From a virus, in the IMG/VR virus record IMGVR_UViG_3300027861_000020: a DNA stretch of 64,000 nucleotides, one strand, 5' to 3'. Numbering within the stretch: the first letter of the stretch is position 1; each line of letters begins with the position of its first letter. Both the position numbers and the translations under genes were made by a program. This document shows positions 2,548 through 63,150 of the stretch, piece after piece. The notes under the pieces were generated by a model. That model saw only the letters and a list, made by a program, of their open reading frames with translations, did no database searches and had not been told where the DNA came from.

Positions 2548-2583
2548 TTTTCCAGCAAAATAATTTTTAATTTTAGGATAGTT
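2548..2583 (+). promoter_or_regulatory. short-form TTTTCCAGCA cassette (motif, A/T-rich TATAAT-like box, SD) upstream of 2584
   Basis: TTTTCCAGCAAAATAATTTTTAATTTTAGGATAG; motif fused to TAA of upstream gene. Confidence 0.55.
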
Positions 2584-2982
2584 ATGGATGATAAATATAT
2601 AACATTAGATGATGATATAATAAGTCAACTTAGTGCTTTTCCTAATTTAGTTGAAGATGGAGAAGTATCTAAAAAAGTATTAGATAGTATAGAGTACATA
2701 TTAGATGCTAATTATTTTATCAAAGATAAATCTCCTATAAATACCTTTAAAGGGCTGTTTGTAAAAAAAACATGTCATTATGCAGGAGTTGGGTTTAGGA
2801 CAGAAATAGGTTTAATATATCAAGATTATTATTCATCAGACGGTGAGACTCATTATGTTGATTATATTATAGTAGATGAAGAAACTAATCAATATATTGG
2901 TAATGCTGACAATTATGGCTTAAATCCGTATGGTCAATGGACTCTTTCCGCTGACATAGGGAATTTAGGATATTTAGGATAA
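2584..2982 (+). CDS. hypothetical protein
   Basis: 132 aa ORF, short-form cassette at 2548 then SD TAGGATAG. Confidence 0.65.
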   Translation: MDDKYITLDDDIISQLSAFPNLVEDGEVSKKVLDSIEYILDANYFIKDKSPINTFKGLFVKKTCHYAGVGFRTEIGLIYQDYYSSDGETHYVDYIIVDEETNQYIGNADNYGLNPYGQWTLSADIGNLGYLG

Positions 2983-2984
2983 TT

Positions 2985-3254
2985 ATGAATAAAAAACAAA
3001 ATAAAGAGAAATGGATTTGGCAACAGGAAAACTTAGCATTGCAAGTTGAATTGCATATTGACAAATTAATGTTACAAAGATTAGTGACTCCGACAGATCT
3101 ATCTATTAGATTAGGGAAAAAAAGAAATTATATTAGTAAATTAGATTATGGTAAATTAACCCTAAGACAAATATCTGATATATTTACTGCCTTAGATTCT
3201 ACCTTAACTGTTGATACTATTGATGGAACAGTTTTCCATACAAATATAAAATAA
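2985..3254 (+). CDS. hypothetical protein
   Basis: 89 aa ORF 3 nt after previous stop. Confidence 0.6.
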   Translation: MNKKQNKEKWIWQQENLALQVELHIDKLMLQRLVTPTDLSIRLGKKRNYISKLDYGKLTLRQISDIFTALDSTLTVDTIDGTVFHTNIK

Positions 3255-3274
3255 TTTTAATAAAGGAAATAATT

Positions 3275-3394
3275 ATGTACGAAGGTTTGCTAGATGGGAT
3301 AGGGGCGTTAATCAAATTTATGTTTATACTTCTTTTGGTAACAGTACCTCTTGGAATATGGAAGCTTGTTGATATCATTAGATGGATTTTTTAA
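3275..3394 (+). CDS. small membrane peptide (39 aa)
   Basis: SD AAAGGAAATAATTATG; one TM helix. Confidence 0.35.
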   Translation: MYEGLLDGIGALIKFMFILLLVTVPLGIWKLVDIIRWIF

Positions 3395-3639
3395 GAAAAG
3401 AAATAATTATGGAACAAAAAGAAACTATAAAAGTTTTAAAAAAAGCTTTAAACAATATCAGATTGGTAGCAAAAGTAAGTTCGACAGATAATCTTTTTCT
3501 AGATGGAACGATAGAAGACTTAAGAAAGAGTAGAATTGCTTTGTTTCATAATATGGAAGATATTGAAAAGTATTCTAAAGAAATTCTTGATGAATTAGAG
3601 GGTTGTAATTGTAATAATTGTACTTGCGGAAAGGATTAA
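3382..3639 (+). CDS. hypothetical protein
   Basis: 85 aa ORF, C-terminal Cys cluster CNCNNCTC. Confidence 0.55.
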   Translation: MDFLRKEIIMEQKETIKVLKKALNNIRLVAKVSSTDNLFLDGTIEDLRKSRIALFHNMEDIEKYSKEILDELEGCNCNNCTCGKD

Positions 3640-3828
3640 AATGGTATCTTTTATAGTGGCAATGGGTGTGATGATTTTTTGGGCTCTTGCAGTATGTTGT
3701 ATGTTAAAATATCTTAATGAATAAAATTAAAGCCTTATTGATAACAAGTAATAGGGTTTTTTTATTTTCCAGCAAAATAACATTATTTAACAGTATAAAT
3801 GTTAATAAATTAAATTAGAAAGATAATT

Positions 3829-4032
3829 ATGAATTCATTGAAAATAGATATTAAAGAAGGAACTAAAGTAGTTATGGAGGGGCCAGGACCTGAATCGGAA
3901 AGAGTTGTTACAGTTGTCGGAGGATTCGGTTCCTATGCAGATACAATGGGAACTGCTTTGTTTGTTAATTACAAAGGTGATGCTATCAGATTTGATTCTA
4001 TGGAGATAGAGAAACTTCATGAAGATAAATAA
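3829..4032 (+). CDS. hypothetical protein
   Basis: 67 aa ORF, cassette at 3767, SD AAAGATAATTATG. Confidence 0.55.
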   Translation: MNSLKIDIKEGTKVVMEGPGPESERVVTVVGGFGSYADTMGTALFVNYKGDAIRFDSMEIEKLHEDK

Positions 4033-4043
4033 CAGGAGTAATT

Positions 4044-4241
4044 ATGCCAAAAAAACATAAAAAATATAAAAAATGCAGAGAATGTAGATACCACTCTATT
4101 TTTTGTTATTGTAATCATGGTTATCTTTGTAAAGCTACAGAAACAACTCTCGATAGAATGAGGCTTTGCGAAGATTTAAATAAAAATGGTGATTGCGAAT
4201 TATATAAAACTGCATGGCTCCATAAAATTTTTAATTGGTAA
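4044..4241 (+). CDS. Cys/His-rich small protein
   Basis: 65 aa ORF, SD ACAGGAG; CRECRYHSIFCYCNHGYLC. Confidence 0.5.
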   Translation: MPKKHKKYKKCRECRYHSIFCYCNHGYLCKATETTLDRMRLCEDLNKNGDCELYKTAWLHKIFNW

Positions 4242-4316
4242 GGAATATGCAAAGATATCTTATTCAATGCAAAAATGATAGTATTGCCTATTTAGACGAA
4301 AGGAAGGGCAAATAAT

Positions 4317-4664
4317 ATGAATGGTACGGAAATATTATTGATAATCTTTTTAATATATATAGTTTCTATTATAGTAAATTATAAAATAACTATGGCTTGC
4401 CTTATGAATACGGATAATGAGACAGGCATAGAAGACAGTAAGGCGTATAGATCTTCCTTTTTTGCATTTTCAGCTATACCTGTATTTGGGTCTTTGATGA
4501 CTTGCGTTATATTAATTGTTACACTAAGAGATAAATGGGAATTATCAAAGAAAATAAAATCATTTAGTAATCTACTTCTTTTTATCCCTAAAAAGATACT
4601 TGAATTCGTTTTGTTTATAATCGAAATAATACCGCCTAACACAAGAATAAAAGAAAGGAAATAA
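4317..4664 (+). CDS. membrane protein, tandem family B copy 1
   Basis: 115 aa, SD AAGGAAGGG; 2 TM + conserved tail F.PKKI..F....I..IPPN. Confidence 0.6.
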   Translation: MNGTEILLIIFLIYIVSIIVNYKITMACLMNTDNETGIEDSKAYRSSFFAFSAIPVFGSLMTCVILIVTLRDKWELSKKIKSFSNLLLFIPKKILEFVLFIIEIIPPNTRIKERK

Positions 4665-4666
4665 AT

Positions 4667-50622: not shown

Positions 50623-50629
50623 TTGATAT

Positions 50630-52245: not shown

Positions 52246-52296
52246 ACTTTTATTTTCTTCATAATTGTTAATAATAAACTTTTTAAGGAATAAAAA
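52231..52296 (+). promoter_or_regulatory. long-form cassette (near-identical ~66-bp block)
   Basis: TTTTCCAGCAAATAAACTTTTATTTTCTTCATAATTGTTAATAATAAACTTTTTAAGGAATAAAAA. Confidence 0.6.
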
Positions 52297-52656: not shown

Positions 52657-52720
52657 TTTTCCAGCATTATAAGCTTTATTCTCTTTATAATTGTTAATAA
52701 TAAACTTTAAGGAATAAAAA

Positions 52721-53011
52721 ATGAGTTTAGATGTAAACAACGAAAAGCAATGGAAAGCTATAAATATAGATAATTCTGATTATGTTGGTATTATCGAAAT
52801 AAATGATTCTGTTTTTGAGATTGTCAAAACAGATAAACATCTGGTTTTTGGTTCGTCTACAAATATCGGATTATTGCAGTCTGGTTATATGGAAATAGAT
52901 GATTATTTCAGTATAGATGAAAATTTGCAAGCCCTTATTGAAAATATAGAAGTTTTTTATAGTTCCGGTTCATTATATGCGGTAGATATTGTATGCAATG
53001 AACGTATGTAG
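52721..53011 (+). CDS. hypothetical protein
   Basis: 96 aa; cassette at 52657. Confidence 0.55.
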   Translation: MSLDVNNEKQWKAINIDNSDYVGIIEINDSVFEIVKTDKHLVFGSSTNIGLLQSGYMEIDDYFSIDENLQALIENIEVFYSSGSLYAVDIVCNERM

Positions 53012-53080
53012 AATTTTCCAGCAAAGTAAGTCTAATTTTCTTTATAATTGTTAATAATAATAACTTTTAAGGAATTAAAA

Positions 53081-53761
53081 ATGCAGACAAAAACAGCAAC
53101 AACAAAAACAGTCAAGACAACAAAAACAGTTAAGCCAGTAGTTATTACAGACCAGAATGCTTTGCTTGCTATGCTGTTAAGGACTAACGGGGCTACTTTT
53201 GTCCAGTTAGAAACCGTAACAGAGCCAAAAATGAACAAAAGAGGTAATCCTTATCTTGATAACATCGAAATCGTTGCTAATAGCAATGTAATGATTGGAA
53301 TGTCTTACGAGAATGTCGTCAATAACGCAAGAGTTAGGGATGCAATCGCAGAAGCTGAACAAGAGGGAATTGATAAAGAAACTCTTAATTCTGTAATGGC
53401 TTTTCTGGGAACATCAGTTGCCGACTATGTAGAGGATTTTACTCCTAAAGAACATCGTTGGGCTGACCATGCAAAAACTGAGGACGGTAATATAAGCCGT
53501 ATTATCATGGAAAAAAGGTCGGATAGGTCTTGTAAGTATGTTCAGGTTTGGGTATTGAATACTAAGGATTATACTTATCGTTTTAAAGATTCTAAAAAAG
53601 AATTGAATGAGCAAGAAATCGAAATTATGAAAGATTTTATGCCTAAAAAGTCCAGTAATAAGGCTCATCAGGGCTTGAAAAAAGAAGTTAAAATCAGGGA
53701 TTATTCGATAGATAGCATTAAGGTTATTACTATGAATAAAACCCAGTATTTCATCAGGTAA
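53081..53761 (+). CDS. hypothetical protein
   Basis: 226 aa; cassette at 53014; Thr/Lys-rich N-terminus; GC-richer; terminator follows. Confidence 0.65.
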   Translation: MQTKTATTKTVKTTKTVKPVVITDQNALLAMLLRTNGATFVQLETVTEPKMNKRGNPYLDNIEIVANSNVMIGMSYENVVNNARVRDAIAEAEQEGIDKETLNSVMAFLGTSVADYVEDFTPKEHRWADHAKTEDGNISRIIMEKRSDRSCKYVQVWVLNTKDYTYRFKDSKKELNEQEIEIMKDFMPKKSSNKAHQGLKKEVKIRDYSIDSIKVITMNKTQYFIR

Positions 53762-53776
53762 TAAAAGATATTTAAA

Positions 53777-53806
53777 GCCCTTATCTTAATCGGTAAGGGC
53801 TTTTTT
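53777..53806 (+). terminator. intrinsic terminator, conserved hairpin family
   Basis: GCCCTTATCTTAATCGGTAAGGGC + TTTTTT. Confidence 0.6.
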
Positions 53807-53875
53807 ATTTTCCAGCGTTATAAACTTTATTCTCTTTATAATTGTTAATAGCAATAACTTTTAAGGAATAAAAAA

Positions 53876-54223
53876 ATGTCAAATATAAATGAAATGACAA
53901 TGAAGTTGTTAAGGCAGTATAAACTACAAGATGAATTCCTAATAACAGCTATGGCTGACCAGATGTTTGAAGAGCTTATATTACTTGTCGAGGGGCAAGA
54001 GGAAAAAGAGCTAAGAAATCTTTTTTATCATGGAGTCAGAGAAGACGTTAGCGAGTATTTTGACCTTGTTAATAGGTATGCCGTAATGGAATTGGGATAT
54101 GAATTATCTCAAGAGGAAGTAGATGCAATTGTATCTATATGCGATGGATATGATAAAGGTAATTGGGGGGAAGAACATCTACAAGTAGCCTTGTCTGATT
54201 ATAAACAGACTCTTAAAATGTAA
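53876..54223 (+). CDS. hypothetical acidic protein
   Basis: 115 aa; cassette at 53808. Confidence 0.6.
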   Translation: MSNINEMTMKLLRQYKLQDEFLITAMADQMFEELILLVEGQEEKELRNLFYHGVREDVSEYFDLVNRYAVMELGYELSQEEVDAIVSICDGYDKGNWGEEHLQVALSDYKQTLKM

Positions 54224-54430
54224 AAGGAATAATTTTCCAGCATTTTAAAGTTAATTAACAGTATAAGAGTAACGGACGTAAAACAGTTTCCTATTTATTA
54301 GGTTGCCGTACCATCGGGGCAGACCCGTACCGAGTATGACGGGATAGCCCGATATCGGGGCAATGAAGTTAAGCCCAAAATGGCTGTTTTTGTAGATAAT
54401 ATGTATCTAACAGCTAAACCCTATTAGGGA

Positions 54431-54471
54431 GGGAAAGTCATTGACTATATGATATGGCTTTCCCTATTTTT
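54431..54471 (+). terminator. intrinsic terminator ending a GC-rich structured non-coding segment
   Basis: GGGAAAGTCATTGACTATATGATATGGCTTTCCC + TATTTTT. Confidence 0.5.
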
Positions 54472-54519
54472 CCAGCGTTATAAACTTTATTTACTGAATA
54501 ATTGTAAGGAATAAATAAA

Positions 54520-54789
54520 ATGGATTATGGTAAATATATAATTGTAGAGTCGAATTGTTCTCAAGCTATTCTTTTTGATAATACAATGTCCCATGATGAC
54601 TTTCTGGCTATGTTTAATAAAGATATAATTAAATCGGCAGGATTTTTTATCGTATCGGGAACAGGGTCTGAACATGACCAAGAAGATATAGAAGTAACTG
54701 TATTCGGAAAAAGTATTACTCTTGGATTAAAATCAGATGAAAAAGATGCATATTATATTAAAAGAATATTAAGAAAATCTCAATATTAA
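54520..54789 (+). CDS. hypothetical protein
   Basis: 89 aa; cassette at 54468 (short variant). Confidence 0.55.
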   Translation: MDYGKYIIVESNCSQAILFDNTMSHDDFLAMFNKDIIKSAGFFIVSGTGSEHDQEDIEVTVFGKSITLGLKSDEKDAYYIKRILRKSQY

Positions 54790-54858
54790 ATTTTCCAGCG
54801 TTATAAACTTTATTCTCTTTATAATTGTTAATAGCAATAACTTTTAAGGAATAAAAAA

Positions 54859-55551
54859 ATGTCAGTAATAGAAAAAGCAACTGAATTAAATAGACTTAGA
54901 AGAATTAAATTCCCTAAAACAGATGAACAAGGGGGAATGACGATTGATAAAGTCGTTAATGAATATAAGAAAAATATTTCTATTATTCTGGATGTCGTTC
55001 TATGGAAAATATGGGGAATCCAAGGGAAAGAAGTTATTGGATATAAGGGAAATGAAATATTTATAGACCCAATAAGACTAGAAAATTCTATTGATAAATC
55101 TATTGAGTTCTATGAAGAGGAATTAGGTCTTGAAAATATCAGAGAATGTGCTATTTGCGGTACATTAAGTCGTATATATTATCTTTGCGACCATTGCGAT
55201 ACCGCTGAAACAGGTCCAGTTTGTGCTGATTGCGTAGATTGGGAACGATTCGATGATTCTTATTTTTGCAAGGCTTGTCCAGATAGAAGCGATGTAAAAT
55301 GGGCTAAAAAGACTATAGACGGGCTATCTGCATCTAATGGGTATCTTTGCAATAGAAAAGTTGTAAAGTTGATTATGGACGAATATGGAGGCTCTATCGT
55401 CAAATGGGGAACAAAGTATTGGATTCAATTCGAACCAGCGTATAGGGCTTATTCAGACTTTGTTTATAAAGAGAAAAACTGTACCAGAGATGATTATAGA
55501 GTTTGGATAAATCAAGCCTCTATGTATAAGAAATGTCGAGAATGGAAGTAA
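54859..55551 (+). CDS. Cys-rich (multi zinc-finger-like) protein
   Basis: 230 aa; CAICG..CDHCD..CADC..CKAC; cassette at 54791. Confidence 0.65.
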   Translation: MSVIEKATELNRLRRIKFPKTDEQGGMTIDKVVNEYKKNISIILDVVLWKIWGIQGKEVIGYKGNEIFIDPIRLENSIDKSIEFYEEELGLENIRECAICGTLSRIYYLCDHCDTAETGPVCADCVDWERFDDSYFCKACPDRSDVKWAKKTIDGLSASNGYLCNRKVVKLIMDEYGGSIVKWGTKYWIQFEPAYRAYSDFVYKEKNCTRDDYRVWINQASMYKKCREWK

Positions 55552-55618
55552 TTTTCCAGCGTTATAATTTTTATTCTCTATATAATTGTAAGGAATAACT
55601 TATTTAAGGAATAAGAAA

Positions 55619-56140
55619 ATGACTGATAATGAGATAAAACATAGACTTTGGGATGTCTATACAGAGCTTAAAAAAGAACATGATTTTGCTCTTGGGGCTT
55701 TATTTATCAAAGTATCAAAAAGACTAAGGAGTTCGGCAGGTAAATGTTTGTCTTATCCGAAACAAGACGTACATACGATTACAATGTCAAAGCCTTTACT
55801 GGACGAATTCGGTTGGGAAAGATTTGAAAAGAATTTCCGTCATGAATTGGCTCATGCTTATTGCTCAAAGAAATATGGAAAATGCAATCATAACCATATA
55901 TTTAAGAGAACTTGTGTCGCTTTTGGAGGTTCAATGAATCCTTCAATGGCAGGTTATGCATATAAAGAGGCCGCAACTACGGAATACGTAAAGACTATTA
56001 AAAAATATAAATATACTTGCCTTTGCGGAATAAGTATGGAATATGCTAAAAGAATGTCCGTAAAGATTAGAAATAGTCAGCGTCATACTTGTAGAAAATG
56101 TAAAACTCCAGTTGCTAAATGGAAAGAGGAAATGATTTAA
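55619..56140 (+). CDS. SprT-like zinc metallopeptidase-domain protein
   Basis: 173 aa; SSAGKCLSYPKQDVHTITMS...FRHELAHAY (SprT-like core with HExxH) plus C-terminal Cys/His zinc ribbon. Confidence 0.7.
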   Translation: MTDNEIKHRLWDVYTELKKEHDFALGALFIKVSKRLRSSAGKCLSYPKQDVHTITMSKPLLDEFGWERFEKNFRHELAHAYCSKKYGKCNHNHIFKRTCVAFGGSMNPSMAGYAYKEAATTEYVKTIKKYKYTCLCGISMEYAKRMSVKIRNSQRHTCRKCKTPVAKWKEEMI

Positions 56141-56207
56141 TTTTCCAGCAAATAGACTTTTATTTTTATTATAAATGTTAATAATAATAACTTTTAAGGA
56201 ATTAAAA

Positions 56208-56543
56208 ATGGGTCAATTATTGAATGAAATTTTTGAAGGACTAAAAGAGATTGTACTCTTTTCTGAAGATGTTGAAGCTCAGGAAAAGGCTCTTAAGATG
56301 TTGCTTAAGGTTCATCTAGAAACAAGCGGAATTATTGAAATTGACAATTTCCGTATTCCTAAAGCTGTTTATCAGGATGCCATTGCTCATATGAAAAATG
56401 GAGAAAAGATATCATGTATCAAGGTTCTCCGAAATGGTATTTTGAGAAACAATGAAGTCCTTGGTCTTAAAGAGGCTAAGCTATTGTCGGAAAGAATATC
56501 CATTATAGAGAAAATTCCTATGTCAAAAGGATATGAAGTATAA
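56208..56543 (+). CDS. hypothetical protein
   Basis: 111 aa; cassette at 56141. Confidence 0.6.
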   Translation: MGQLLNEIFEGLKEIVLFSEDVEAQEKALKMLLKVHLETSGIIEIDNFRIPKAVYQDAIAHMKNGEKISCIKVLRNGILRNNEVLGLKEAKLLSERISIIEKIPMSKGYEV

Positions 56544-56554
56544 AGACCTTTAAA

Positions 56555-56584
56555 GCCCTTATCTTAATTGATAGGGGCTTTTTT
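56555..56584 (+). terminator. intrinsic terminator, conserved hairpin family
   Basis: GCCCTTATCTTAATTGATAGGGGC + TTTTTT. Confidence 0.6.
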
Positions 56585-56647
56585 CCAGCATTTTAAATTT
56601 TATTTTCTTTATAATTGTTAATAATAATAACTTTTAAGGAATTGAAA
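56581..56647 (+). promoter_or_regulatory. long-form cassette
   Basis: TTTTCCAGCATTTTAAATTTTATTTTCTTTATAATTGTTAATAATAATAACTTTTAAGGAATTGAAA. Confidence 0.6.
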
Positions 56648-57079
56648 ATGCCAAAGAATATAATCAGCCATTGCCTTAAACCTCTTAATCGCAAAGCCGA
56701 AAATATCTTTTTTAAGATTATTGAAGGCGTAAAATGGGATGCCGCTAAATATATTGGCGAAAAAGGCAAAGCGTTTATGCAGGTTGTTGTCAAAAGAATA
56801 CCACACGATGCCATTTATGGTAAAGTATATGCAGTAGGTCATTATTATACACAAATGGGCGATAGAATGTCCGACCCTGAAATGACTTTCCTTGTTAATA
56901 CAGTTGATGGTAGAGTTTATCCTCTTTCTTTTGAACAACATGGGACGTTTGCAACTTACGAAACATCAGCGGTTTTTAAAGACGGAGAATATGTAGGCAA
57001 GTATAAAAAGATGAACAATGACCACAAAAACTTCGCTAATGGTTGGATGGAAAACATTAAACATCAGCAAAGTCTATAA
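56648..57079 (+). CDS. hypothetical protein
   Basis: 143 aa; cassette at 56581; terminator follows. Confidence 0.6.
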   Translation: MPKNIISHCLKPLNRKAENIFFKIIEGVKWDAAKYIGEKGKAFMQVVVKRIPHDAIYGKVYAVGHYYTQMGDRMSDPEMTFLVNTVDGRVYPLSFEQHGTFATYETSAVFKDGEYVGKYKKMNNDHKNFANGWMENIKHQQSL

Positions 57080-57093
57080 TAAACATTTCAAAA

Positions 57094-57144
57094 AGGAGGA
57101 AATCGTTTCCCTTATTCCTTAGCGGTTTCCTCCTCTTCTTTTTT
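57094..57144 (+). terminator. intrinsic terminator
   Basis: AGGAGGAAATCG...GGTTTCCTCCT + CTTCTTTTTT. Confidence 0.55.
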
Positions 57145-57210
57145 CCAGCATTTTAAGTTTTATTTTCATTATAATTGTTAGTAATAATAATAACTTTAAG
57201 GAATAAAAAA
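57141..57210 (+). promoter_or_regulatory. long-form cassette
   Basis: CCAGCA 57145-50, TATAAT 57170-75, SD AAGGAATAAAAAAATG. Confidence 0.6.
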
Positions 57211-57465
57211 ATGGATAATGATAATCTTCTCATATTACGGGTTCAAAGCAATTTTGGGATATTTCATATTTACCCAGTATGTCAAAAATCAAGAGCCTTT
57301 GCTCATATCGCAAACAAGAAAACTTTATCACCAAATGATTTAAAAGATATCGCTTTTATCGGCTTTCGTATTGCGTTTAATAATCTCCCAACGGAGAAAA
57401 CAGAACCTTATAACCAGAATGGATATAAAGGGTTTCAAAAGTTTTTAGATAATTGGAATGGTTAA
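57211..57465 (+). CDS. hypothetical protein
   Basis: 84 aa; cassette at 57141. Confidence 0.55.
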   Translation: MDNDNLLILRVQSNFGIFHIYPVCQKSRAFAHIANKKTLSPNDLKDIAFIGFRIAFNNLPTEKTEPYNQNGYKGFQKFLDNWNG

Positions 57466-57538
57466 AAAACATTTTCCAGCGTTGTTAGTTTTATTTTCTT
57501 TATAATTGTTAATAATAATAACTTTAAGGAATAATAAA

Positions 57539-57742
57539 ATGGAAGATAATCAGGTAAAAGTAGTTGCTCAAGTAAATAGAAAAGAAGGTACTTATAATCA
57601 TACCAGACAAATTCCTACATTTTTTGTCAATGCTTATTGTTTTGTCACCGCAAAGAGTATTGTAAAAGATATATTTAAAGGACAAAATATGTCTGGTCAA
57701 ATGGAAGATTCTAAAGGATATATGAAGAATTTTAACTTTTAA
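57539..57742 (+). CDS. hypothetical protein
   Basis: 67 aa; cassette at 57472. Confidence 0.5.
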   Translation: MEDNQVKVVAQVNRKEGTYNHTRQIPTFFVNAYCFVTAKSIVKDIFKGQNMSGQMEDSKGYMKNFNF

Positions 57743-57753
57743 GGAATAAAAAA

Positions 57754-58056
57754 ATGGGAAAAACAAACATTCCTGTAAAATGCGGTTGCGGTTGCGATGA
57801 ATATTTGGTAGACGATATTTCAGAAGAATTTCCAACGGCTGTAAAAGCAGAACAAAAGGGTAAGAATATCCTTATTCTTAGAAATATCAATCCCATAAAA
57901 CGGCTTGATGGAAAAATGGCTACTTATTCTCTTGAACATTGTTGGTTAAGAGATATTAAAGATACAACATCGGTATTAGGTAATGATTATTCCTATTGGC
58001 AGAAAAAAGAGCTAAACTGGAAAGAAAGTTTATTCGATCAAGTAAATCTTTTTTAA
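57754..58056 (+). CDS. hypothetical protein
   Basis: 100 aa, SD TTAAGGAATAAAAAAATG; CGCGC motif. Confidence 0.55.
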   Translation: MGKTNIPVKCGCGCDEYLVDDISEEFPTAVKAEQKGKNILILRNINPIKRLDGKMATYSLEHCWLRDIKDTTSVLGNDYSYWQKKELNWKESLFDQVNLF

Positions 58057-58126
58057 GATTTTCCAGCAAATAAACTCTTATTTTCTTTATAATTGTTAAT
58101 AATAATAACTTTTAAGGAATAAAAAA

Positions 58127-58354
58127 ATGGCAGACAAAGAAGTTTCAAAAGCAATAATAATTGATACGGAAGAAGGAATTAAGGGTTACAGAATTTTAGC
58201 TTTAAGGTCGGCTCTGAAACTTGAAGTTTTGGGAATGAAAAGACGGGGGCAATCGGTTTATTCTATCGTCAAACAAGAATTCGGTTTCAAGGGAAATAAA
58301 AAGAAAGTTCTGGATCAATTAAATAAGTATATTGAAGATAATTATAATCTTTAA
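58127..58354 (+). CDS. hypothetical protein
   Basis: 75 aa; cassette at 58059. Confidence 0.55.
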   Translation: MADKEVSKAIIIDTEEGIKGYRILALRSALKLEVLGMKRRGQSVYSIVKQEFGFKGNKKKVLDQLNKYIEDNYNL

Positions 58355-58553
58355 TACTAATAGAAGGGAAAGTCTGTTCCGGATAGGCTTTCTCTTCTTC
58401 TATTTTCCAGCATTTTATCTTTTAATTCCTTTATAATTGTTAATAGTAATAACTTTTAAGGAGTTAGAAATGAATGGTATGGATTTTTATACAGCAAGTT
58501 TTATATGTTTGTTTTTATGGGGTTTTTGGAAAATAACAGCTTAGGGGAAAATA

Positions 58554-58709
58554 ATGGATATAAATTTTGACGAAGCTCAAGAAATAATAAATCTAATGAA
58601 ACAAGACCCAGAAGCTTATCAAGAATTCATAGAGGATTTGGCTCTTAAAAGATTAGCAGTAAATGAAGGAGTAAGAAAATCATGGCAATTATGGTTTAAA
58701 ATACAATAA
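58554..58709 (+). CDS. small hypothetical protein (51 aa)
   Basis: SD TTAGGGGAAAATAATG; preceded by 24-aa membrane peptide ORF 58470-58544. Confidence 0.45.
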   Translation: MDINFDEAQEIINLMKQDPEAYQEFIEDLALKRLAVNEGVRKSWQLWFKIQ

Positions 58710-58801
58710 TTTTCCATCTTGATATGAAATGGAATTTCCAGCGTTGTAAGTTTTATTTTCTTTATAATTGTTAATAATAATAACTTTTAAGGAATAAAAA
58801 A

Positions 58802-59281
58802 ATGAATAAAGCTCTCCTTATTATAGATATGCAAACGGGATTTAAAACAGCCCATGATGAAAAAACAATCGAAAATGTCCTTAAGCAAATAGATGAAGCC
58901 TATGAGAATGATTTGCCAATATTTATTTTAGAACATACAATAGATAGATTCGGATATACTTTGGAAATAATACGAGAATATTTAGACGATTATGATAATA
59001 AATATTACATAGAAAAATTTGAAGATGATGGAGGGGATGAACTAATTGAATATATTACAGAGGAAGATTATTCTATTGATGAATTTATTACTTGCGGAGT
59101 TAATATATCTTATTGCGTAGGAAAGACAATAAACAGCTTGGTAAAAGAATACAAAAAGATGATAACGCTTATATATGACGCTTGTAACTGTACTAATAAC
59201 AAAGATGACGCTTTCGATGGCTGTTATTGCGGTTATTTTTATAGCGATATATTTGAATCAGATAAAGTTTTAATACAATAA
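58802..59281 (+). CDS. hypothetical acidic protein
   Basis: 159 aa; cassette at 58734. Confidence 0.6.
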   Translation: MNKALLIIDMQTGFKTAHDEKTIENVLKQIDEAYENDLPIFILEHTIDRFGYTLEIIREYLDDYDNKYYIEKFEDDGGDELIEYITEEDYSIDEFITCGVNISYCVGKTINSLVKEYKKMITLIYDACNCTNNKDDAFDGCYCGYFYSDIFESDKVLIQ

Positions 59282-59372
59282 TTTTCCATCTTGATATGAA
59301 AAGAATTTTCCAGCATTTTAATTTTTATTTTCATTATAATTGTTAATAATAATAACTTTTAAGGAATTGAAA

Positions 59373-59564
59373 ATGACGACTAAAAAAATGATTGATGGCA
59401 AGGTTTACGAAATTGATGTTGACGAATTTGATATTGAAGCTGAAAAAGCAAGCAAGGCAATCAGGACTATGGCAGGCTTTGGTACTATCAAAAAGACTAT
59501 TAAAAAACGTCCTCCACAATGTTTCGCTATTACGGAATCGGCAATCAATAGATATTCAAAGTAA
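59373..59564 (+). CDS. hypothetical protein
   Basis: 63 aa; cassette at 59306. Confidence 0.5.
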   Translation: MTTKKMIDGKVYEIDVDEFDIEAEKASKAIRTMAGFGTIKKTIKKRPPQCFAITESAINRYSK

Positions 59565-59664
59565 TTAAAGGGGGCGAAAGTCCCCATTTTTATTTAATTT
59601 TCCAGCGTTATAAGTTTTATTTTCTTTATAATTGTTAATGATAATAACTTTTAAGGAATGAAAA

Positions 59665-59847
59665 ATGTCAAGAAAAATGCAAAGTTTCATCAAAGAAAAC
59701 AGAAAAGAAATTACAAAAAGAATCATTGAACTACATCCTGATACAGAAGCTCTTAAATCTATCAATGATGACGAACGCAGGGTAATGATTCTGAATGAGC
59801 CTGAATTGACAAAATGGGCAAGAAGTCAAGGAGTTGTAATCGACTAA
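59665..59847 (+). CDS. hypothetical protein
   Basis: 60 aa; cassette at 59598. Confidence 0.5.
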   Translation: MSRKMQSFIKENRKEITKRIIELHPDTEALKSINDDERRVMILNEPELTKWARSQGVVID

Positions 59848-59906
59848 ATAGTCAGGGAAAGTCCTTTATCAGGGGCTTTCTCTTTTTTCTTTTTAAGGAA
59901 ATAATA

Positions 59907-60089
59907 ATGTCAGAAAGAGAAGAAAACGATAAAGAAGGTATAATTGACTGTCATTACTTTGCAGATGGTTCTGGAATTATCTGTATGGTTACTCAAGTTA
60001 TTGATAGAGAATTTCCAAGCGACAATTTACTTTGTAGAGGGTATGGAAATACCTATAAAGAAGCTCGACAAAGTGCCTTAGAAGACTAA
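59907..60089 (+). CDS. hypothetical protein
   Basis: 60 aa after terminator; SD TTAAGGAAATAATAATG. Confidence 0.5.
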   Translation: MSEREENDKEGIIDCHYFADGSGIICMVTQVIDREFPSDNLLCRGYGNTYKEARQSALED

Positions 60090-60157
60090 TTTTCCAGCAT
60101 TTTAAACTTTATTTTCTTTATAATTGTTAATGATAATAACTTTTAAGGAATAAAAAG
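60090..60157 (+). promoter_or_regulatory. long-form cassette
   Basis: TTTTCCAGCATTTTAAACTTTATTTTCTTTATAATTGTTAATGATAATAACTTTTAAGGAATAAAAAG. Confidence 0.6.
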
Positions 60158-60325
60158 ATGGATATGAGTCTAAGAAATGCTTTAATTGCAAGCCAAGACC
60201 TAAACGAAATTGAAGCTAATGCTCTTATTGAAGAAATGAGAGAGAGAATTATTGAAGGAGAAAATCCTGAAGAGGTTTTATACAGCGAAGGTCTTGAACC
60301 TGATTATATTTTTGATTTAATTTAA
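60158..60325 (+). CDS. small acidic protein, family G paralog 1
   Basis: 55 aa; EEVLYSEGLEPDYIFDL shared with 60996 product. Confidence 0.5.
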   Translation: MDMSLRNALIASQDLNEIEANALIEEMRERIIEGENPEEVLYSEGLEPDYIFDLI

Positions 60326-60465
60326 TCCTTATTCAATAAACGGATAAGAACCATACAATCTCTATCTACTAAACGGATAGGGATTGTATTTTATTATTTT
60401 CCAGCGTTTTATCTTTTATTTACTTTATAATTGTTAATGATGATAAACTTTTAAGGAATAAAAAA

Positions 60466-60600
60466 ATGAATTTGCTAATAACTAACGAAAAAGATAACGA
60501 ATCATATGAAAAACAATTCAATTCATATACAGATGCAAGGAATTGGATCATAAATCATCTGGACTTGTCGAAAAAATGGTCATGTACTGATATGGGATAG
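60466..60600 (+). CDS. small hypothetical protein (44 aa)
   Basis: cassette at 60397. Confidence 0.4.
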   Translation: MNLLITNEKDNESYEKQFNSYTDARNWIINHLDLSKKWSCTDMG

Positions 60601-60693
60601 TTTTCCAGCATTTTACAGTTTATTTTCTTTATAATTGTTAATGATAATAACTTTTAAGTAAATCAGAGATTTAATTTAAAAAGGAATTGAAAA

Positions 60694-60942
60694 ATGTTTA
60701 TAATAGAGAGAATCACAAATAAAAGAGAATTTTTAAGGACTAGCTTAGGAACTGTAATAAACTTTGCAACCAAAAAAGAAGCCATAGAATGTCTTGAAAG
60801 ACAACCTAATCATGAAGCCTTCCATGTTAGAAGACCTATAAAATCCGATTTTAAAGTTCGGAGTTTTAGAATGACTTTCAAAAAAGGATTTTATAGGTTG
60901 TATCTAAAGAATTCAATTAGCAATATTTCTCCAGCAATTTAA
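60694..60942 (+). CDS. hypothetical basic protein
   Basis: 82 aa; cassette at 60601 plus extra leader, SD AAAAAGGAATTGAAAAATG. Confidence 0.5.
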   Translation: MFIIERITNKREFLRTSLGTVINFATKKEAIECLERQPNHEAFHVRRPIKSDFKVRSFRMTFKKGFYRLYLKNSISNISPAI

Positions 60943-60995
60943 AGTTTATTCTCTTTATAATTGTTAATGATAATAACTTGTTTAAGGAATAAAAA

Positions 60996-61169
60996 ATGTC
61001 TGAATTGAAAAAAGCTTTAATGAGTAGTCAAGGTATTACTGGATCAGAAGCTGATGAAATTATTGAAGAGATGAAAAATAGAGTTCTTGACGAGGGGCAA
61101 GATCCAGAAGAAGTTCTGTACGAAGAAGGTCTTGAACCTGATTATGTTTTTGATCTTCTTGATTTTTAG
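60996..61169 (+). CDS. small acidic protein, family G paralog 2
   Basis: 57 aa; EEVLYEEGLEPDYVFDLL. Confidence 0.5.
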   Translation: MSELKKALMSSQGITGSEADEIIEEMKNRVLDEGQDPEEVLYEEGLEPDYVFDLLDF

Positions 61170-61188
61170 TTTTCTTTTGTCATATTTA

Positions 61189-61229
61189 GGAGGGAGTAAT
61201 GCTTTAATTATTCCCTCCGCCTTTCTTTT
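61189..61229 (+). terminator. intrinsic terminator
   Basis: GGAGGGAGTAATGCTTTAATTATTCCCTCC + GCCTTTCTTTT. Confidence 0.55.
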
Positions 61230-61295
61230 CCAGCAATTTAAAGTTTATTCTCTTTATAATTGTTAATGATAATAACTTGTTTAAGGAATAAAAAA

Positions 61296-61472
61296 ATGAA
61301 TATTTATGATGATGATTTTGATGATGTAGATAACTTTGAAGAGACTGATGATTATTATGATGACGAAAATGAATCGTCTCTTGAAGAACTTTATGAAAAT
61401 GAGGATTTTGCTCAAGATGGAGATTTTCATAATATGGAATATGACTCCGAAATGGGATGTTGGGGGTCTTGA
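61296..61472 (+). CDS. highly acidic small protein
   Basis: 58 aa, Asp/Glu-rich; cassette at 61226. Confidence 0.5.
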   Translation: MNIYDDDFDDVDNFEETDDYYDDENESSLEELYENEDFAQDGDFHNMEYDSEMGCWGS

Positions 61473-61498
61473 TTAAAATACATGTTTTTACTTTTCAG

Positions 61499-61534
61499 GG
61501 GGAAGTAAGCTACGCGATTACTTCCCCCATTTTC
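61499..61534 (+). terminator. intrinsic terminator
   Basis: GGGGGAAGTAAGCTACGCGATTACTTCCCCC + ATTTT. Confidence 0.6.
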
Positions 61535-61596
61535 CAGCATTTTAAACTTTATTTTCTTTATAATTGTTAATGATAATAACTTTTAAGGAATAAAAA
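61530..61596 (+). promoter_or_regulatory. long-form cassette
   Basis: identical over ~60 bp to the 60090 copy. Confidence 0.6.
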
Positions 61597-61839
61597 ATGA
61601 GAGCCGATTTTATCAAAGTAGAATACAAAACTTATCTTTTTAATGGCGAAAAATTTACTGTCCGAAAAGACTTTTGGGATTATTTTGATGCCTGTCCTGA
61701 TTGCTCTGTCATAACAAAAACGCCTATTAGCTTTGGGGTTGGTAGAGATGACTTTACCCAAAATGAGAGCAATCTGGGCGTTGTATGGGCTGATGGCGAT
61801 AAAGATATGATGTTAATCTCAAGACCTCGTATGTATTAA
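61597..61839 (+). CDS. hypothetical protein
   Basis: 80 aa; cassette at 61530. Confidence 0.55.
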   Translation: MRADFIKVEYKTYLFNGEKFTVRKDFWDYFDACPDCSVITKTPISFGVGRDDFTQNESNLGVVWADGDKDMMLISRPRMY

Positions 61840-61961
61840 GAGCCCAAGGGTCTTGAACCCCTAACAACCTCCTTATTCTGAAAAGAGTAAGGGGGTTTTC
61901 CAGCATTTTGATTCTTATTCCCTTTATAATTGTTAATAATAAACTTTTTAAGGAAAATAAA

Positions 61962-62171
61962 ATGTTTAATAAAAATAAATTCCCCAAAGCCCCAAAACTT
62001 GATGGTTGTTTTCCGGTTTTCCCGAAAAAGAAAAGACAATTTAAATTGTTTAAAAAAATGCTTTGTCTAATTGGTATTCATGATAGAGAAACTATTGAAT
62101 ATTGGGAAGACGAAAGTAGTTCAGATAATTTCGATCAATGTAAACATTGTAAAAAATTATTGCCATGGTAA
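61962..62171 (+). CDS. hypothetical protein
   Basis: 69 aa; cassette at 61896; C-terminal CKHCKK. Confidence 0.5.
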   Translation: MFNKNKFPKAPKLDGCFPVFPKKKRQFKLFKKMLCLIGIHDRETIEYWEDESSSDNFDQCKHCKKLLPW

Positions 62172-62240
62172 TTTTCCAGCGTTTTAAACTTTATTCTCTT
62201 TATAATTGTTAATGATGATAAACTTTTAAGGAATAAAAAA
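62172..62240 (+). promoter_or_regulatory. long-form cassette (CCAGCG variant)
   Basis: TTTTCCAGCGTTTTAAACTTTATTCTCTTTATAATTGTTAATGATGATAAACTTTTAAGGAATAAAAAA. Confidence 0.6.
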
Positions 62241-62570
62241 ATGGCTAAAAGAATAAAAGTAAAAAATTCATTGTTTGATGTTAATTCAGCTCAAAACTTA
62301 GTAGACCGCCTAAGGTCAGAACTCGATTTTTCTTTTATATCAGCGAGTATGAGTATGCTAGGCGGAAAAGATAATATAACAATCATGCTAGCGGTATCAA
62401 TAGAAGCAAAAGAGAATTGGCCAGGAGATATTTTTGAGAACTCAAATTACAGGCGTTTCTCTATCTTTAATGATGGGACTGTCGAAAACTTTACGACTTC
62501 TGGACTCTCGAAAGTCAGAAAGTTTACAGCAAAATCAGTTGATGACTTAATAGCTCGATTAAATAAATAA
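62241..62570 (+). CDS. hypothetical protein
   Basis: 109 aa; cassette at 62172. Confidence 0.55.
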   Translation: MAKRIKVKNSLFDVNSAQNLVDRLRSELDFSFISASMSMLGGKDNITIMLAVSIEAKENWPGDIFENSNYRRFSIFNDGTVENFTTSGLSKVRKFTAKSVDDLIARLNK

Positions 62571-62655
62571 TAACTTTTCCAGCGTTTTCACTTTTAATTG
62601 CTTATATATTATAAGGGTTATCTAATTTTACTTCTGTTTTACGAAAGGTTTTACT

Positions 62656-62754
62656 ATGAAAAGAATCATGAATAACGATCCAACTATCGAACTTGAAGCA
62701 AGCAATCTCGACAATTATGATCAAAAAGAAGTAAGGAGTATTTTCGGAGATTAG
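62656..62754 (+). CDS. small peptide (32 aa), doubtful
   Basis: SD ACGAAAGG; followed by terminator hairpin 62765-62793. Confidence 0.3.
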   Translation: MKRIMNNDPTIELEASNLDNYDQKEVRSIFGD

Positions 62755-62764
62755 AAGTCGTAAA

Positions 62765-62793
62765 ACCCTTCGGGTCAAACCGAGGGGTTTTAT
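62765..62793 (+). terminator. intrinsic terminator
   Basis: CCCTTCGGGTCAAACCGAGGGG + TTTTATCTTTTT. Confidence 0.55.
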
Positions 62794-63150
62794 CTTTTTA
62801 TATTAAATTAAAATTCCAGCAAATTGAATGTTAATTATATATAATTATAAGAAGTAATTAAATCGAAAGGAGAATTAAACCAATCAATTAAAATACTTAA
62901 TAAAATATATATGACATAGACTATATAGAGAATTAAAAATACAAAAAATAGGAAGGGTTTAAAAATGAAGTAATTTATTTGATTGTGTAATAGAAGAGTA
63001 TATAATAATAAATAGTTGACTATAAAGCAACTGTTAATAGAGAAGAGAAAGTAGATGAGTTATGTTCTAATTGAATACTATCTACTTTCCTTTTCTATCT
63101 TTTATATCTTGAATGAATTTCCAGCATGTTAAATCTTATTTAGGTATATA

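What the first reader, a model, noticed from the sequence alone, without database searches (positions are those of the whole stretch)
2548..63130. About 80 same-strand copies of a TTTTCCAGCA promoter-like motif, one per gene
Distribution:
- TTTTCC(A)GCA(A/T/G) occurs upstream of nearly every + strand gene. Examples: 2552, 6791, 8984, 9959, 10928, 12701, 14049, 16878, 17637, 19084, 21538, 22571, 24087, 24882, 25944, 26815, 27731, 29086, 29621, 31174, 31779, 32550, 34968, 35721, 36100, 37036, 38121, 39020, 39928, 40743, 41303, 41834, 42374, 43314, 43662, 44471, 44829, 45998, 46776, 49308, 50089, 50366, 50887, 51074, 51625, 52235, 52661, 53018, 53812, 54237, 54472, 54795, 55556, 56145, 56585, 57145, 57476, 58063, 58407, 58738, 59310, 59602, 60094, 60401, 60605, 61230, 61534, 61900, 62176, 62579, 62816, 63121.
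- It is always in one orientation, except for a cluster at 18.3 kb.
- It often abuts or overlaps the upstream stop codon (TAA-TTTTCCAGCA). It is sometimes inside the last codons, so proteins end FQQ or FPAN.

Two forms:
- In the first 24 kb the motif is followed directly by an A/T-rich TATAAT-like box and an SD 26-30 nt before the ATG.
- Later it lies ~19 nt upstream of a conserved TATAATTGTTAAT. That spacing puts it at about -37 to -32.

A sigma70 -35 hexamer is absent.

What it could be:
- A phage-specific -35-position element read by an appropriated sigma (T4 MotA/AsiA style) or a phage sigma.
- The promoter of a phage-encoded RNA polymerase (T7/N4-like logic of a conserved ~20-bp block before each gene).
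- A combined stop/start processing signal.

The density (~1.2 per kb) and the apparent absence of operons are unusual.
Basis: seen in the sequence. Interest (0 to 1): 0.8.

Follow-up and report, generated by a model that had tools for sequence, protein, structure and literature searches.

The report
Repeated phage promoter cassette with unusual upstream box
An uncultured large phage carries about 80 same-strand copies of a portable promoter-like cassette (TTTTCCAGCA at a fixed distance from a TATAAT/TGTTAAT box) in front of its small accessory genes; it resembles known phage promoter cassettes, but its upstream box matches no known promoter consensus and its reader is unidentified.

Summary
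TTTTCCAGCA occurs 53 times exactly (0.25 expected), and the core TTCCAGC occurs 82 times on + versus 3 on -. Almost all copies lie at gene junctions.

It is the 5' edge of a two-part cassette. Across the window and about 36 related metagenomic contigs, 129 of 135 exact TGTTAAT boxes lie exactly 25 nt after the motif. A TAnnnT hexamer (usually TATAAT) sits 19-20 nt after it. Spacer sequences vary, and the distance from the box to the ATG varies.

Other supporting facts:
- 18 copies follow strong hairpins, and 35 abut a stop codon.
- A few copies precede ORF-free structured stretches.
- There is no consensus RNA structure and no excess of sigma70-type promoters.
- Homology blocks between relatives end inside cassettes, and gene order differs.

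Best reading: a lineage-specific promoter cassette, analogous to the PeSL cassettes of T4-type phages. TTTCCAGCA stands where a -35 element would be.

"One per gene, no operons" holds only for about 48-63 kb. A 12-copy class with motif-N26-ATG does not fit sigma70 geometry, so the start site and the reading factor (phage sigma, activator or RNA polymerase, or an unusual host sigma) remain open. Verdict: new variant of a known kind, moderate interest.

The parts
2548..63126 (+). Array of 82 copies of (T/A)TTTCCAGC(A/G), each the 5' edge of an intergenic cassette
   Evidence: Motif starts: 2548, 3765, 5214, 6787, 8980, 9955, 10924, 12697, 14045, 16874, 17633, 18348, 19080, 20749, 21534, 22567, 24083, 24878, 25940, 26811, 27729, 29082, 29617, 30097, 31170, 31775, 32546, 32806, 34561, 34964, 35362, 35717, 36096, 37032, 38117, 39016, 39924, 40739, 40932, 41299, 41830, 42370, 43300, 43658, 44467, 44825, 45994, 46772, 49304, 49628, 50085, 50362, 50883, 51069, 51621, 52231, 52657, 53014, 53808, 54233, 54468, 54791, 55552, 56141, 56581, 57141, 57472, 58059, 58403, 58734, 59306, 59598, 60090, 60397, 60601, 61226, 61530, 61896, 62172, 62575, 62812, 63117. 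A variant TTCTCCAGCA at 60927 also carries the box. Classes by an approximate scripted rule: 47 B, 4 B with displaced box, 12 A, 10 C-like, 9 other.
60090..60160 (+). Typical long (class B) cassette: motif 60090-60099, 19-nt T-rich spacer, TATAAT 60119-60124, TGTTAAT 60125-60131, AAGGA 60145-60149, ATG 60158
   Evidence: The stop codon of the upstream gene (TAA, 60087-60089) abuts the motif.
39016..39081 (+). Class B variant: motif, then TAAGAT 20 nt downstream, overlapping TGTTAAT at N25; preceded by a -19.7 kcal/mol hairpin
42370..42408 (+). Typical short (class A) cassette: motif 42370-42379, AAGGA 42394-42398, TAAAAT 42400-42405, ATG 42406 (N26)
   Evidence: This class has 12 copies in the window by the scripted rule (26811 is doubtful). 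The same arrangement occurs 3 times in L004 and once in L154.
53774..53817 (+). Intrinsic-terminator-like hairpin (53774-53803) whose T-run merges into the TTTT of motif 53808-53817
   Evidence: 18 of 82 copies have a hairpin of -10 kcal/mol or stronger within the 45 nt upstream, against 3.4% of random positions.
54233..54467 (+). Class C cassette (motif-N19-TATAAGAGTAACGG) followed by an ORF-free structured stretch that ends in a terminator hairpin directly before the next motif (54468)
   Evidence: MFE -61.2 kcal/mol, z -2.5; no Rfam family.
63117..63300 (+). Last cassette of the array (motif-N19-ATATAGGGTAAGGG) followed by a G-rich ORF-free stretch ending in a T-run
   Evidence: the fold is not significant: z -1.5. 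Partly conserved in L162. Beyond it, 10 kb of packed genes hold a single copy.
49304..63126 (+). Densest zone: about one cassette per gene, with nearly identical ~70-nt cassettes between unrelated ORFan genes
   Evidence: Only 9 paralogous pairs exist among 148 proteins.
18262..18332 (-). Two minus-strand near-copies (TATTCCAGCA at 18262-18271 and 18323-18332) in a 220-nt AT-palindrome-rich gap
17590..19102 (+). About 65-nt direct repeats, each including the motif (17590-17655 and 19037-19102), flanking a two-gene segment

Best explanation
The motif is the upstream half of a two-part promoter cassette specific to this phage lineage.

Core layout: (T/A)TTTCCAGC(A/G), then 19-20 nt of T-rich spacer, then a -10-like hexamer TAnnnT (usually TATAAT), which is followed directly by TGTTAAT. 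About 25 nt further on come AAGGA and the ATG.

Inferred mechanism:
- A multisubunit RNA polymerase holoenzyme contacts both boxes.
- CCAGC then lies near -35, where a sigma70 -35 box would be, but with a different sequence and a spacer 2-3 bp too long.
- It is therefore probably read by a phage-encoded or phage-remodelled specificity factor (sigma, or a MotA-like activator), or less likely by an uncharacterised host sigma.
- Initiation would fall about 7 nt after the hexamer, inside or just after TGTTAAT. That gives the mRNAs a common leader of about 25 nt.

Many cassettes sit directly behind a hairpin plus T-run terminator or a stop codon, so genes are expressed as short units. The cassettes are repeated about 80 times between unrelated ORFan genes. 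They also act as homology patches at which gene modules are exchanged, as in PeSL cassettes of T4-type phages.

Shown: the enrichment, strand bias, junction position, fixed spacing, conservation in relatives, upstream hairpins and breakpoint coincidence.
For: Enrichment and orientation:
- 53 exact copies against 0.25 expected; 82 on + against 3 on -.
- Conservation starts abruptly at the motif and runs only downstream.

Fixed geometry:
- Across the window and relatives there are 208 motif sites. Of 135 exact TGTTAAT boxes within 8-50 nt, 129 lie at exactly N25.
- This holds across 112 different spacers with mean pairwise identity 0.59 (0.44 expected at random).
- By contrast, the box-to-ATG distance ranges from 18 to 29 nt.
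- TAnnnT is found at offset 19 or 20 in 51 of 82 window sites and 89 of 127 relative sites.

Conservation in relatives:
- The same motif, orientation and spacings occur in L004, which is 72-79% identical in nucleotide sequence.
- They also occur in 35 metagenomic contigs that are 65-85% identical.

Context:
- Strong hairpins precede 18 of 82 copies, against 3.4% of random positions. Eight of the 9 terminator-like sites in 44-64 kb are on the + strand.
- Cassettes precede ORF-free stretches that end in a terminator hairpin or a T-run.
- There is no consensus RNA structure: 0 predicted pairs.
- Canonical sigma70 promoters are not enriched: 111 against 110.
- Flanking genes are unrelated: 9 paralogous pairs among 148 proteins.

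Shuffling: 76 of 125 internal homology-block ends fall inside cassettes, against 15% at random, and gene order differs between relatives.

Precedents:
- PeSL cassettes (PMC2839356).
- Huge phages that encode their own sigma70 and AsiA-like proteins (PMC7162821).
Against: - There are no transcript data, so promoter activity and the start site are inferred.
No sigma, RNA polymerase, MotA or AsiA family was found in 148 window proteins.
- The geometry is off for sigma70. The spacer is 19-20 nt after GCA, or 22 nt after the -35-like TTTCCA.
- In class A the hexamer abuts the ATG: TAnnnT fills positions -6 to -1 in 4 of 11 class A genes against 0 of 132 other genes. A sigma70-type start would therefore fall 5-7 nt inside the ORF. 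At 54468 it would fall inside the Shine-Dalgarno sequence. Those copies then cannot express the adjacent gene from their own start.
- The near-invariant TGTTAAT downstream of the hexamer is not explained by sigma70-type recognition. In L004 it is better conserved than TATAAT.
- TAnnnT also peaks at offsets 3 and 10 after the motif. The true melting element could therefore lie closer to the motif.
Confidence: 0.55

Rival explanations
1. The conserved block TTTTCCAGCA(A/T)(A/T)TTAAA(N)T is a self-contained promoter for a phage-encoded RNA polymerase, in the style of T7, N4 or phiKZ. The block has an AT-rich part, a specific core and an AT-rich melting part. Initiation would lie about 15-26 nt after the motif start. 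The TATAAT/TGTTAAT box would then lie in the 5' leader or form a second promoter.
For: - The block has a sharp 5' edge and about 20-24 nt of conservation.
- TAnnnT peaks 3 nt after the motif in 34 of 82 window sites and 64 of 127 relative sites.
- This is the only geometry in which class A copies (motif-N26-ATG; 12 in the window by the scripted rule, 4 in relatives) and the 54468 copy give an mRNA that keeps the Shine-Dalgarno sequence and ATG of the adjacent gene.
- Class A copies usually head runs of 2-6 genes.
- T at offset 25 and a purine at offset 26 are nearly invariant: 75 and 78 of 82.
Against: - It does not explain why the box is held at exactly N25 across 112 different spacers.
- It does not explain why a TAnnnT hexamer is kept at N19-20 even in class A.
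- No RNA polymerase family was detected in the window.
- The sequence matches neither the AR9 early consensus (AAATATATATTAT-N6-G) nor the AR9 late consensus (AACA-N6-TA/G), nor the phiKZ late TATG.
Confidence: 0.2
2. These are ordinary early promoters read by the unmodified primary sigma of an uncharacterised host whose -35 specificity differs from TTGACA. No phage factor would be involved.
For: - Dense promoter arrays in front of small ORFan genes are typical of early genes, which must be read on entry (PeSL precedent).
- The -10 hexamer is a perfect TATAAT.
- The host is unknown. The contigs come only from metagenomes.
Against: - An exact scan of 185,579 species genomes found no instance of the full cassette. 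That scan asked for the whole 21-base cassette, so it is a weak test.
- No known bacterial -35 consensus resembles TTCCAGCA (my own knowledge).
- More distant relatives at 40% and 32% G+C lack the motif.
Confidence: 0.12
3. The motif acts in RNA as a processing site, a stop/start signal or a translational element between cistrons.
For: - It abuts or overlaps stop codons in 45 of 82 copies.
- It lies at a fixed 26 nt from the ATG in class A.
Against: - It keeps a fixed distance to a DNA-type -10 hexamer and to the box, while its distance to the Shine-Dalgarno sequence and ATG varies in class B.
- 18 copies lie downstream of terminator hairpins.
- Copies precede ORF-free stretches.
- No conserved RNA structure exists.
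- The register to the stop codon differs between the window and L004 (TAA|TTTTCC against TAA|TTTCC).
Confidence: 0.05
4. The motif is a purely DNA-level site, for example a recombination, Chi-like or nicking site (reverse complement TGCTGGAA), whose intergenic position is secondary.
For: - The strand bias is extreme.
- Homology-block ends coincide with cassettes, and gene order differs among relatives.
- GCTGG is the start of the E. coli Chi sequence (my own knowledge).
Against: - Its position is tied to the -10-like hexamer, the box and start codons at single-nucleotide precision.
- Only two copies (5214, 32806) lie well inside an ORF; ten overlap only the last codons of a gene.
- General homologous recombination between 70-nt repeats suffices to explain the shuffling, as proposed for PeSLs.
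Confidence: 0.05

Closest known systems
PeSL (promoter-early stem-loop) cassettes of T4-type phages RB49 and phi1 (Arbiol et al. 2010, PMC2839356)
   Same: - Repeated intergenic cassettes, about 50 per genome in PeSL phages and 82 per 61 kb here.
- They combine a promoter with, in part, a stem-loop terminator.
- They are concentrated in a region of small ORFan genes on one strand.
- Conservation runs from upstream of the promoter to the ATG.
- Cassettes mark the boundaries of gene insertion, deletion and reordering between relatives.
   Different: - PeSL promoters are canonical sigma70 -35/-10 promoters. Here the -35 box is replaced by TTTCCAGCA, 19-20 nt from the hexamer, and an invariant TGTTAAT follows the hexamer.
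- A strong hairpin accompanies only about 22% of copies.
- No T4-type core gene was identified. The lineage appears related to a 481-kb phage contig.
- Mini-circles were not tested.
T4 middle promoters (MotA box plus sigma70 -10; sigma appropriation by AsiA and MotA)
   Same: - A host-type -10 hexamer is combined with a phage-specific upstream box that replaces the -35 element.
- The promoters precede many small genes on one strand.
   Different: - The MotA box is (a/t)(a/t)(a/t)TGCTT(t/c)A, centred at -30 and 11-13 bp from the -10 (my own knowledge). Here the sequence differs, the centre is about -36 and the gap is 19-20 bp.
- No MotA or AsiA family was found among the window proteins.
Promoters of phage-encoded sigma factors (for example SPO1 gp28 and gp33/34; the sigma70 genes reported in huge phages, PMC7162821)
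   Same: A two-part -35/-10-type promoter with a phage-specific -35 sequence.
   Different: No sigma gene could be linked to this lineage. The spacer is longer than the usual 16-18 bp.
Promoters of phage RNA polymerases: AR9 and phiKZ virion and non-virion enzymes (PMC5312081); T7-like enzymes
   Same: A strongly conserved, lineage-specific block in front of many genes. The start site could lie close to the block.
   Different: - AR9 early is AAATATATATTAT-N6-G, AR9 late is AACA-N6-TA/G, and phiKZ late is TATG. All are single short blocks. None has a second box at a fixed 25-nt distance.
- No sequence resemblance was found.

Membership tests
PeSL-type mobile regulatory cassette | Repeated intergenic cassette upstream of ORFan genes in a plastic genome region | tested here: met
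   82 copies at gene junctions. Of 148 proteins, only 19 Pfam families were hit and only 9 pairs are paralogous.
PeSL-type mobile regulatory cassette | Canonical sigma70-like -35 and -10 boxes | tested here: not met
   The -10-like TATAAT is present. There is no TTGACA-like box at 16-18 nt, and the sigma70 scan gives 111 sites against 110 in shuffles.
PeSL-type mobile regulatory cassette | Associated stem-loop acting as a terminator | tested here: inconclusive
   18 of 82 copies have a hairpin of -10 kcal/mol or stronger just upstream, a 6.5-fold enrichment. Most copies abut a stop codon instead.
PeSL-type mobile regulatory cassette | Cassettes are the sites of gene-module exchange between relatives | tested here: met
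   76 of 125 internal homology-block ends lie inside cassettes (15% expected). Block order differs in L134, L150, L158, L159 and L162. Mini-circles were not tested.
T4 middle promoter (MotA/AsiA) | sigma70-type -10 hexamer | tested here: met
   TAnnnT at offset 19 or 20 in 51 of 82 window sites and 89 of 127 relative sites.
T4 middle promoter (MotA/AsiA) | MotA box TGCTT centred near -30, 11-13 bp from the -10 | tested here: not met
   The upstream box is TTTCCAGCA and ends 19-20 bp before the hexamer. The MotA box consensus is taken from my own knowledge.
T4 middle promoter (MotA/AsiA) | motA and asiA genes in the genome | not testable with these tools
   None was found among 148 window proteins. 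Only about 80 kb of a probably much larger genome could be read.
Canonical sigma70 promoter | TTGACA-like box 17 +/- 1 bp upstream of TATAAT | tested here: not met
   At 17 bp the hexamer is AGCA(A/T)(A/T). TTTCCA (4 of 6 matches) lies 22 bp away.
AR9/phiKZ-type phage RNA polymerase promoter | Consensus AAATATATATTAT-N6-G (early), AACA-N6-TA/G or TATG (late) | tested here: not met
   The cassette consensus was compared with the published consensus sequences.
Promoter (any kind) | Primary transcript 5' ends at a fixed distance downstream | not testable with these tools
   No transcript data could be reached.

The most novel reading that the evidence does not exclude
The cassette defines the recognition sequence of an undescribed transcription specificity system of a huge-phage lineage: a sigma, an activator or a phage RNA polymerase whose contacts are 25-32 bp apart. 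Initiation would be at the invariant T-purine 25-26 nt after the motif. Class A genes would then be made as leaderless mRNAs from their own cassette, and as leadered mRNAs by read-through. The same cassette would serve as an integron-like portable expression and recombination module that drives turnover of ORFan genes.
Probability: 0.25. Interest if true: 0.65.

Novelty: new variant of a known kind. Interest (0 to 1): 0.45.

Why it matters
Transcription programmes of uncultured large phages are essentially unknown. If the cassette is a promoter, it has three uses:
- It gives a ready-made, sequence-defined regulon: about 80 units in 60 kb, recognisable in several metagenomes. This can be used to annotate gene starts and temporal classes.
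- It can be used to fish for the cognate sigma, activator or RNA polymerase.
- It allows a test of whether repeated promoter cassettes drive ORFan shuffling outside T4-type phages.

The overlap of promoter and ribosome-binding site in the short form, and the invariant TGTTAAT, are concrete features that current sigma70-based models do not explain.

Tried and rejected
Searches that found nothing useful:
- INPHARED nucleotide search, and a protein search with the DUF932-like gene: no match.
- IMG/VR scan with the full cassette: none.
- L021 looked enriched (12 minus-strand near-matches), but the copies share no context and are probably coding. L009 was not significant.
- GTDB genome scan: none.
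- Literature string searches for the motif returned only primers and unrelated hits.

Relatives without the motif: more distant relatives L127, L163, L164 and L165 lack it, so no co-variation of motif and reader could be studied.

The protein at 291-707 was not on record.

Ideas considered and dropped:
- Bacteroidetes -33/-7 promoter (TTTG ... TAnnTTTG). TATAATTG matches 5 of the 6 specified positions, but there is no TTTG upstream, the variants do not fit, and strong Shine-Dalgarno sites argue against such a host.
- An extended -10 reading, TGnTAATAn. The position equivalent to T-7 is not conserved.
- A leader mini-ORF starting at the (A/T/G)TG of the box. Its frame and stop are not conserved.
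- Pairing of UUCC in the motif with the GGAA of the Shine-Dalgarno sequence. Only 4 bp could form, and the alignment fold gives 0 pairs.
- sigma54-type -24/-12 geometry. It does not fit.
- Tandem gene duplication as the source of the repeats. Only 9 paralogous pairs exist.

Full report
**What the window is**

- It has 29% G+C and positive GC skew throughout.
- It holds about 150 small ORFs, almost all on the + strand.
- Of 148 predicted proteins, only 19 Pfam families are hit. They include RtcB, a cyclic-phosphate receiver domain, a lysozyme, a cold-shock domain, SprT and Band_7. There is no sigma factor, RNA polymerase, MotA or AsiA.
- It matches no isolate phage at the DNA level.
- Identical pieces occur in ENA and Logan assemblies.
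- A lineage-specific protein just beyond the window (L005:19404-19988) has a 58%-identical relative on a 481-kb contig. That relative lies beside major-head and tail genes.
- The window is therefore most likely the accessory, "hyperplastic" part of a large or huge phage genome.

**The observation**

- TTTTCCAGCA occurs 53 times exactly, always on +, against 0.25 expected.
- With one mismatch there are 87 copies against 8 expected.
- The core TTCCAGC occurs 82 times on + and 3 times on -.
- Two copies (5214, 32806) lie well inside an ORF, and ten overlap only the last codons of a gene. The rest are intergenic.
- The claim of one copy per gene holds only near the 3' end. The count rises from 4 motifs for 21 genes in the first 8 kb to 19 for 22 in the last 8 kb.
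- The array stops at 63.1 kb. The next 10 kb of tightly packed genes (NADAR, NUDIX, RNase H, phosphoribosyltransferase) hold a single copy.

**Anatomy**

- Sequence conservation begins abruptly at the motif and extends only downstream.
- In the main class (47 copies, plus 4 with a displaced box) the layout is: motif, a 19-nt T-rich spacer, TATAAT, TGTTAAT, 18-29 nt, AAGGA, ATG.
- Every exact TATAATTGTTAAT in the window has the motif upstream.
- Pooling the window with relatives gives 208 motif sites. Of 135 exact TGTTAAT boxes nearby, 129 lie at exactly 25 nt.
- This holds across 112 distinct spacers with mean pairwise identity 0.59 (0.44 expected for random sequence of that composition). The distance from the box to the ATG is free to vary.
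- A TAnnnT hexamer sits 19 or 20 nt after the motif in 51 of 82 window sites and 89 of 127 relative sites.
- Indel-prone AT-rich spacers of constant length indicate selection on the distance. The two boxes are therefore most likely read together on DNA.

**Context**

- 23 copies abut a stop codon exactly, and 35 lie within 9 nt of one.
- 18 copies lie just after a hairpin of -10 kcal/mol or stronger, whose T-run merges with the TTTT of the motif. Only 3.4% of random positions have such a hairpin.
- About ten copies carry a different downstream box (TATA..TAAG). Some of these are followed by no ORF but by G+C-richer stretches: 54243-54467, which is structured and ends in a terminator hairpin, and 63127-63300, which ends in a T-run. 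No Rfam family matches them.
- An alignment fold of 20 diverse cassettes gives no base pair at all.
- Canonical sigma70 -35/-10 pairs are not enriched: 111 against 110.

**Relatives**

- L004 is syntenic with 22.5-36 kb and 72-79% identical in nucleotide sequence. It carries the same motif on the same strand at gene junctions, with both spacing classes.
- A metagenome scan found 35 short contigs from at least seven samples. They are 65-85% identical to 24-63 kb of the window and are full of the same cassettes.
- IMG/VR, 185,579 species genomes and INPHARED contain none.
- More distant relatives at 32-40% G+C lack the motif.

**Shuffling**

- Genes flanked by cassettes are unrelated to one another.
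- 76 of 125 internal ends of homology blocks between relatives and the window fall inside a cassette, against 15% expected.
- Block order differs. In L159, for example, the blocks run 53.0 kb, 57.8 kb, 55.5 kb. L134, L150, L158 and L162 also differ.
- Caveat: gene boundaries are natural ends of homology. The reordering is the stronger evidence.
- This is the behaviour described for PeSL cassettes of RB49 and phi1.

**Mechanism**

The best-supported reading is a lineage-specific two-part promoter. If the hexamer at 19-20 nt is a -10 element, CCAGC is centred near -35 and the start site falls in or just after TGTTAAT. The upstream box matches no -35 consensus I know, and its spacing is 2-3 bp longer than sigma70 allows. 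A phage-encoded or phage-remodelled specificity factor is the natural candidate. Huge phages are known to carry their own sigma70 and AsiA-like genes. A host sigma of unknown specificity cannot be excluded.

**What does not fit**

- Twelve copies in the window (by the scripted rule; 26811 is doubtful), three in L004 and one in L154 have the ATG 26 nt after the motif. AAGG lies inside the spacer.
- A TAnnnT hexamer fills the six nucleotides before the ATG in 4 of 11 such genes (the 11 scored), against 0 of 132 other genes (p = 2e-5). T at -1 occurs in 9 of 11 against 30 of 132.
- A sigma70-type start would then lie 5-7 nt inside the ORF.
- There are two possible explanations:
  1. These are maximally compacted internal promoters. 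The hexamer occupies the spacer between the Shine-Dalgarno sequence and the ATG. The first gene is translated from read-through RNA, which fits with most of these copies abutting the upstream gene and heading runs of 2-6 genes.
  2. Initiation is not sigma70-like. It could be at the invariant T-purine 25-26 nt after the motif, giving leaderless class A mRNAs. Or it could be closer to the motif, where TAnnnT also peaks at offsets 3 and 10, as expected for a phage RNA polymerase promoter block.
- The near-invariant TGTTAAT is likewise unexplained by sigma70 rules.
- The published AR9 and phiKZ promoter consensus sequences do not match.

**Verdict**

The promoter interpretation is well supported but indirect. 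The thing is a new variant of a known kind, the repeated phage promoter cassette. Its distinctive features are a non-canonical upstream box, a strict two-box geometry and a promoter that overlaps the ribosome-binding site. The reading factor and the start site need transcript mapping and a complete genome.

Noticed in passing
window 50630-50765 (+); RtcB at 48056-49303; cREC_REC protein at 42825-43154: A tRNA gene with a 63-nt insertion in the anticodon loop, probably an intron (Rfam 52.3 bits; ARAGORN missed it). It lies 1.3 kb downstream of an RtcB RNA ligase gene. A cyclic-phosphate receiver-domain protein is also in the window, which suggests an RNA repair or splicing module.
   Followed up: partly
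window 54243-54467, 62822-63116, 63127-63300 (+): ORF-free stretches, richer in G+C than the surroundings. Each follows a variant cassette (motif-N19-TATA..TAAG). The first ends in a terminator hairpin and the last in a T-run. Fold energies are -61 kcal/mol (z -2.5) for the first and -42 kcal/mol (z -1.5) for the last. No Rfam family matches. They are candidate small RNAs.
   Followed up: partly
window 29594-29612, 39899-39917, 58711-58729, 59283-59301 (+): A 19-nt imperfect palindrome, TTTCCATYTTNATATGAAA, occurs four times (0.15 expected). Each copy ends 4-5 nt before a motif copy. Similar ..ATATGAAA.. sequences precede motifs in relatives. It could be an operator for a regulator or a weak hairpin.
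   Followed up: partly
window 17590-19102: About 65-nt direct repeats that include the motif flank a two-gene segment. AT-rich palindromes (TAATAATTATTAATTAATAATTATTAAT) lie at 18177-18203 and 19019-19048. The only two minus-strand near-copies of the motif lie between them. They may drive antisense transcription, or they may be a rearrangement scar.
   Followed up: no
window 26864-27571 (-), 37311-37955 (-), 47154-48014 (+): Two paralogous HNH endonuclease genes (51% identity) are the only clear minus-strand genes, and they have no motif. A third gene, with two HNH domains, is on the + strand. In L004 the site of the first one holds a different gene, as expected for mobile homing endonucleases.
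   Followed up: partly
window about 24045-24082, 50060-50084, 53774-53807, 56555-56580: One terminator hairpin sequence (AAAGCCCTTATCTTAAT.GRTAAGGGGCTTT) recurs before four different cassettes. The terminators, too, are a repeat family.
   Followed up: no
L005 10400-20402 (continuation beyond window end); L163: - Beyond the array the genome switches to tightly packed genes without cassettes: NADAR, NUDIX, RNase HI, phosphoribosyltransferase.
- In a 481-kb relative, the homologous neighbourhood adjoins major head and tail genes.
- The best phage-database hit of the RNase H is a 642-kb uncultured phage.
   Followed up: partly
L145 (LWDU01008076.1) 1181-1222: One full-length cassette match lies in a 36% G+C contig that has no other similarity to the window and no ribosome-binding site or ATG downstream. 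It is either a chance match or a cassette in an unrelated context.
   Followed up: no
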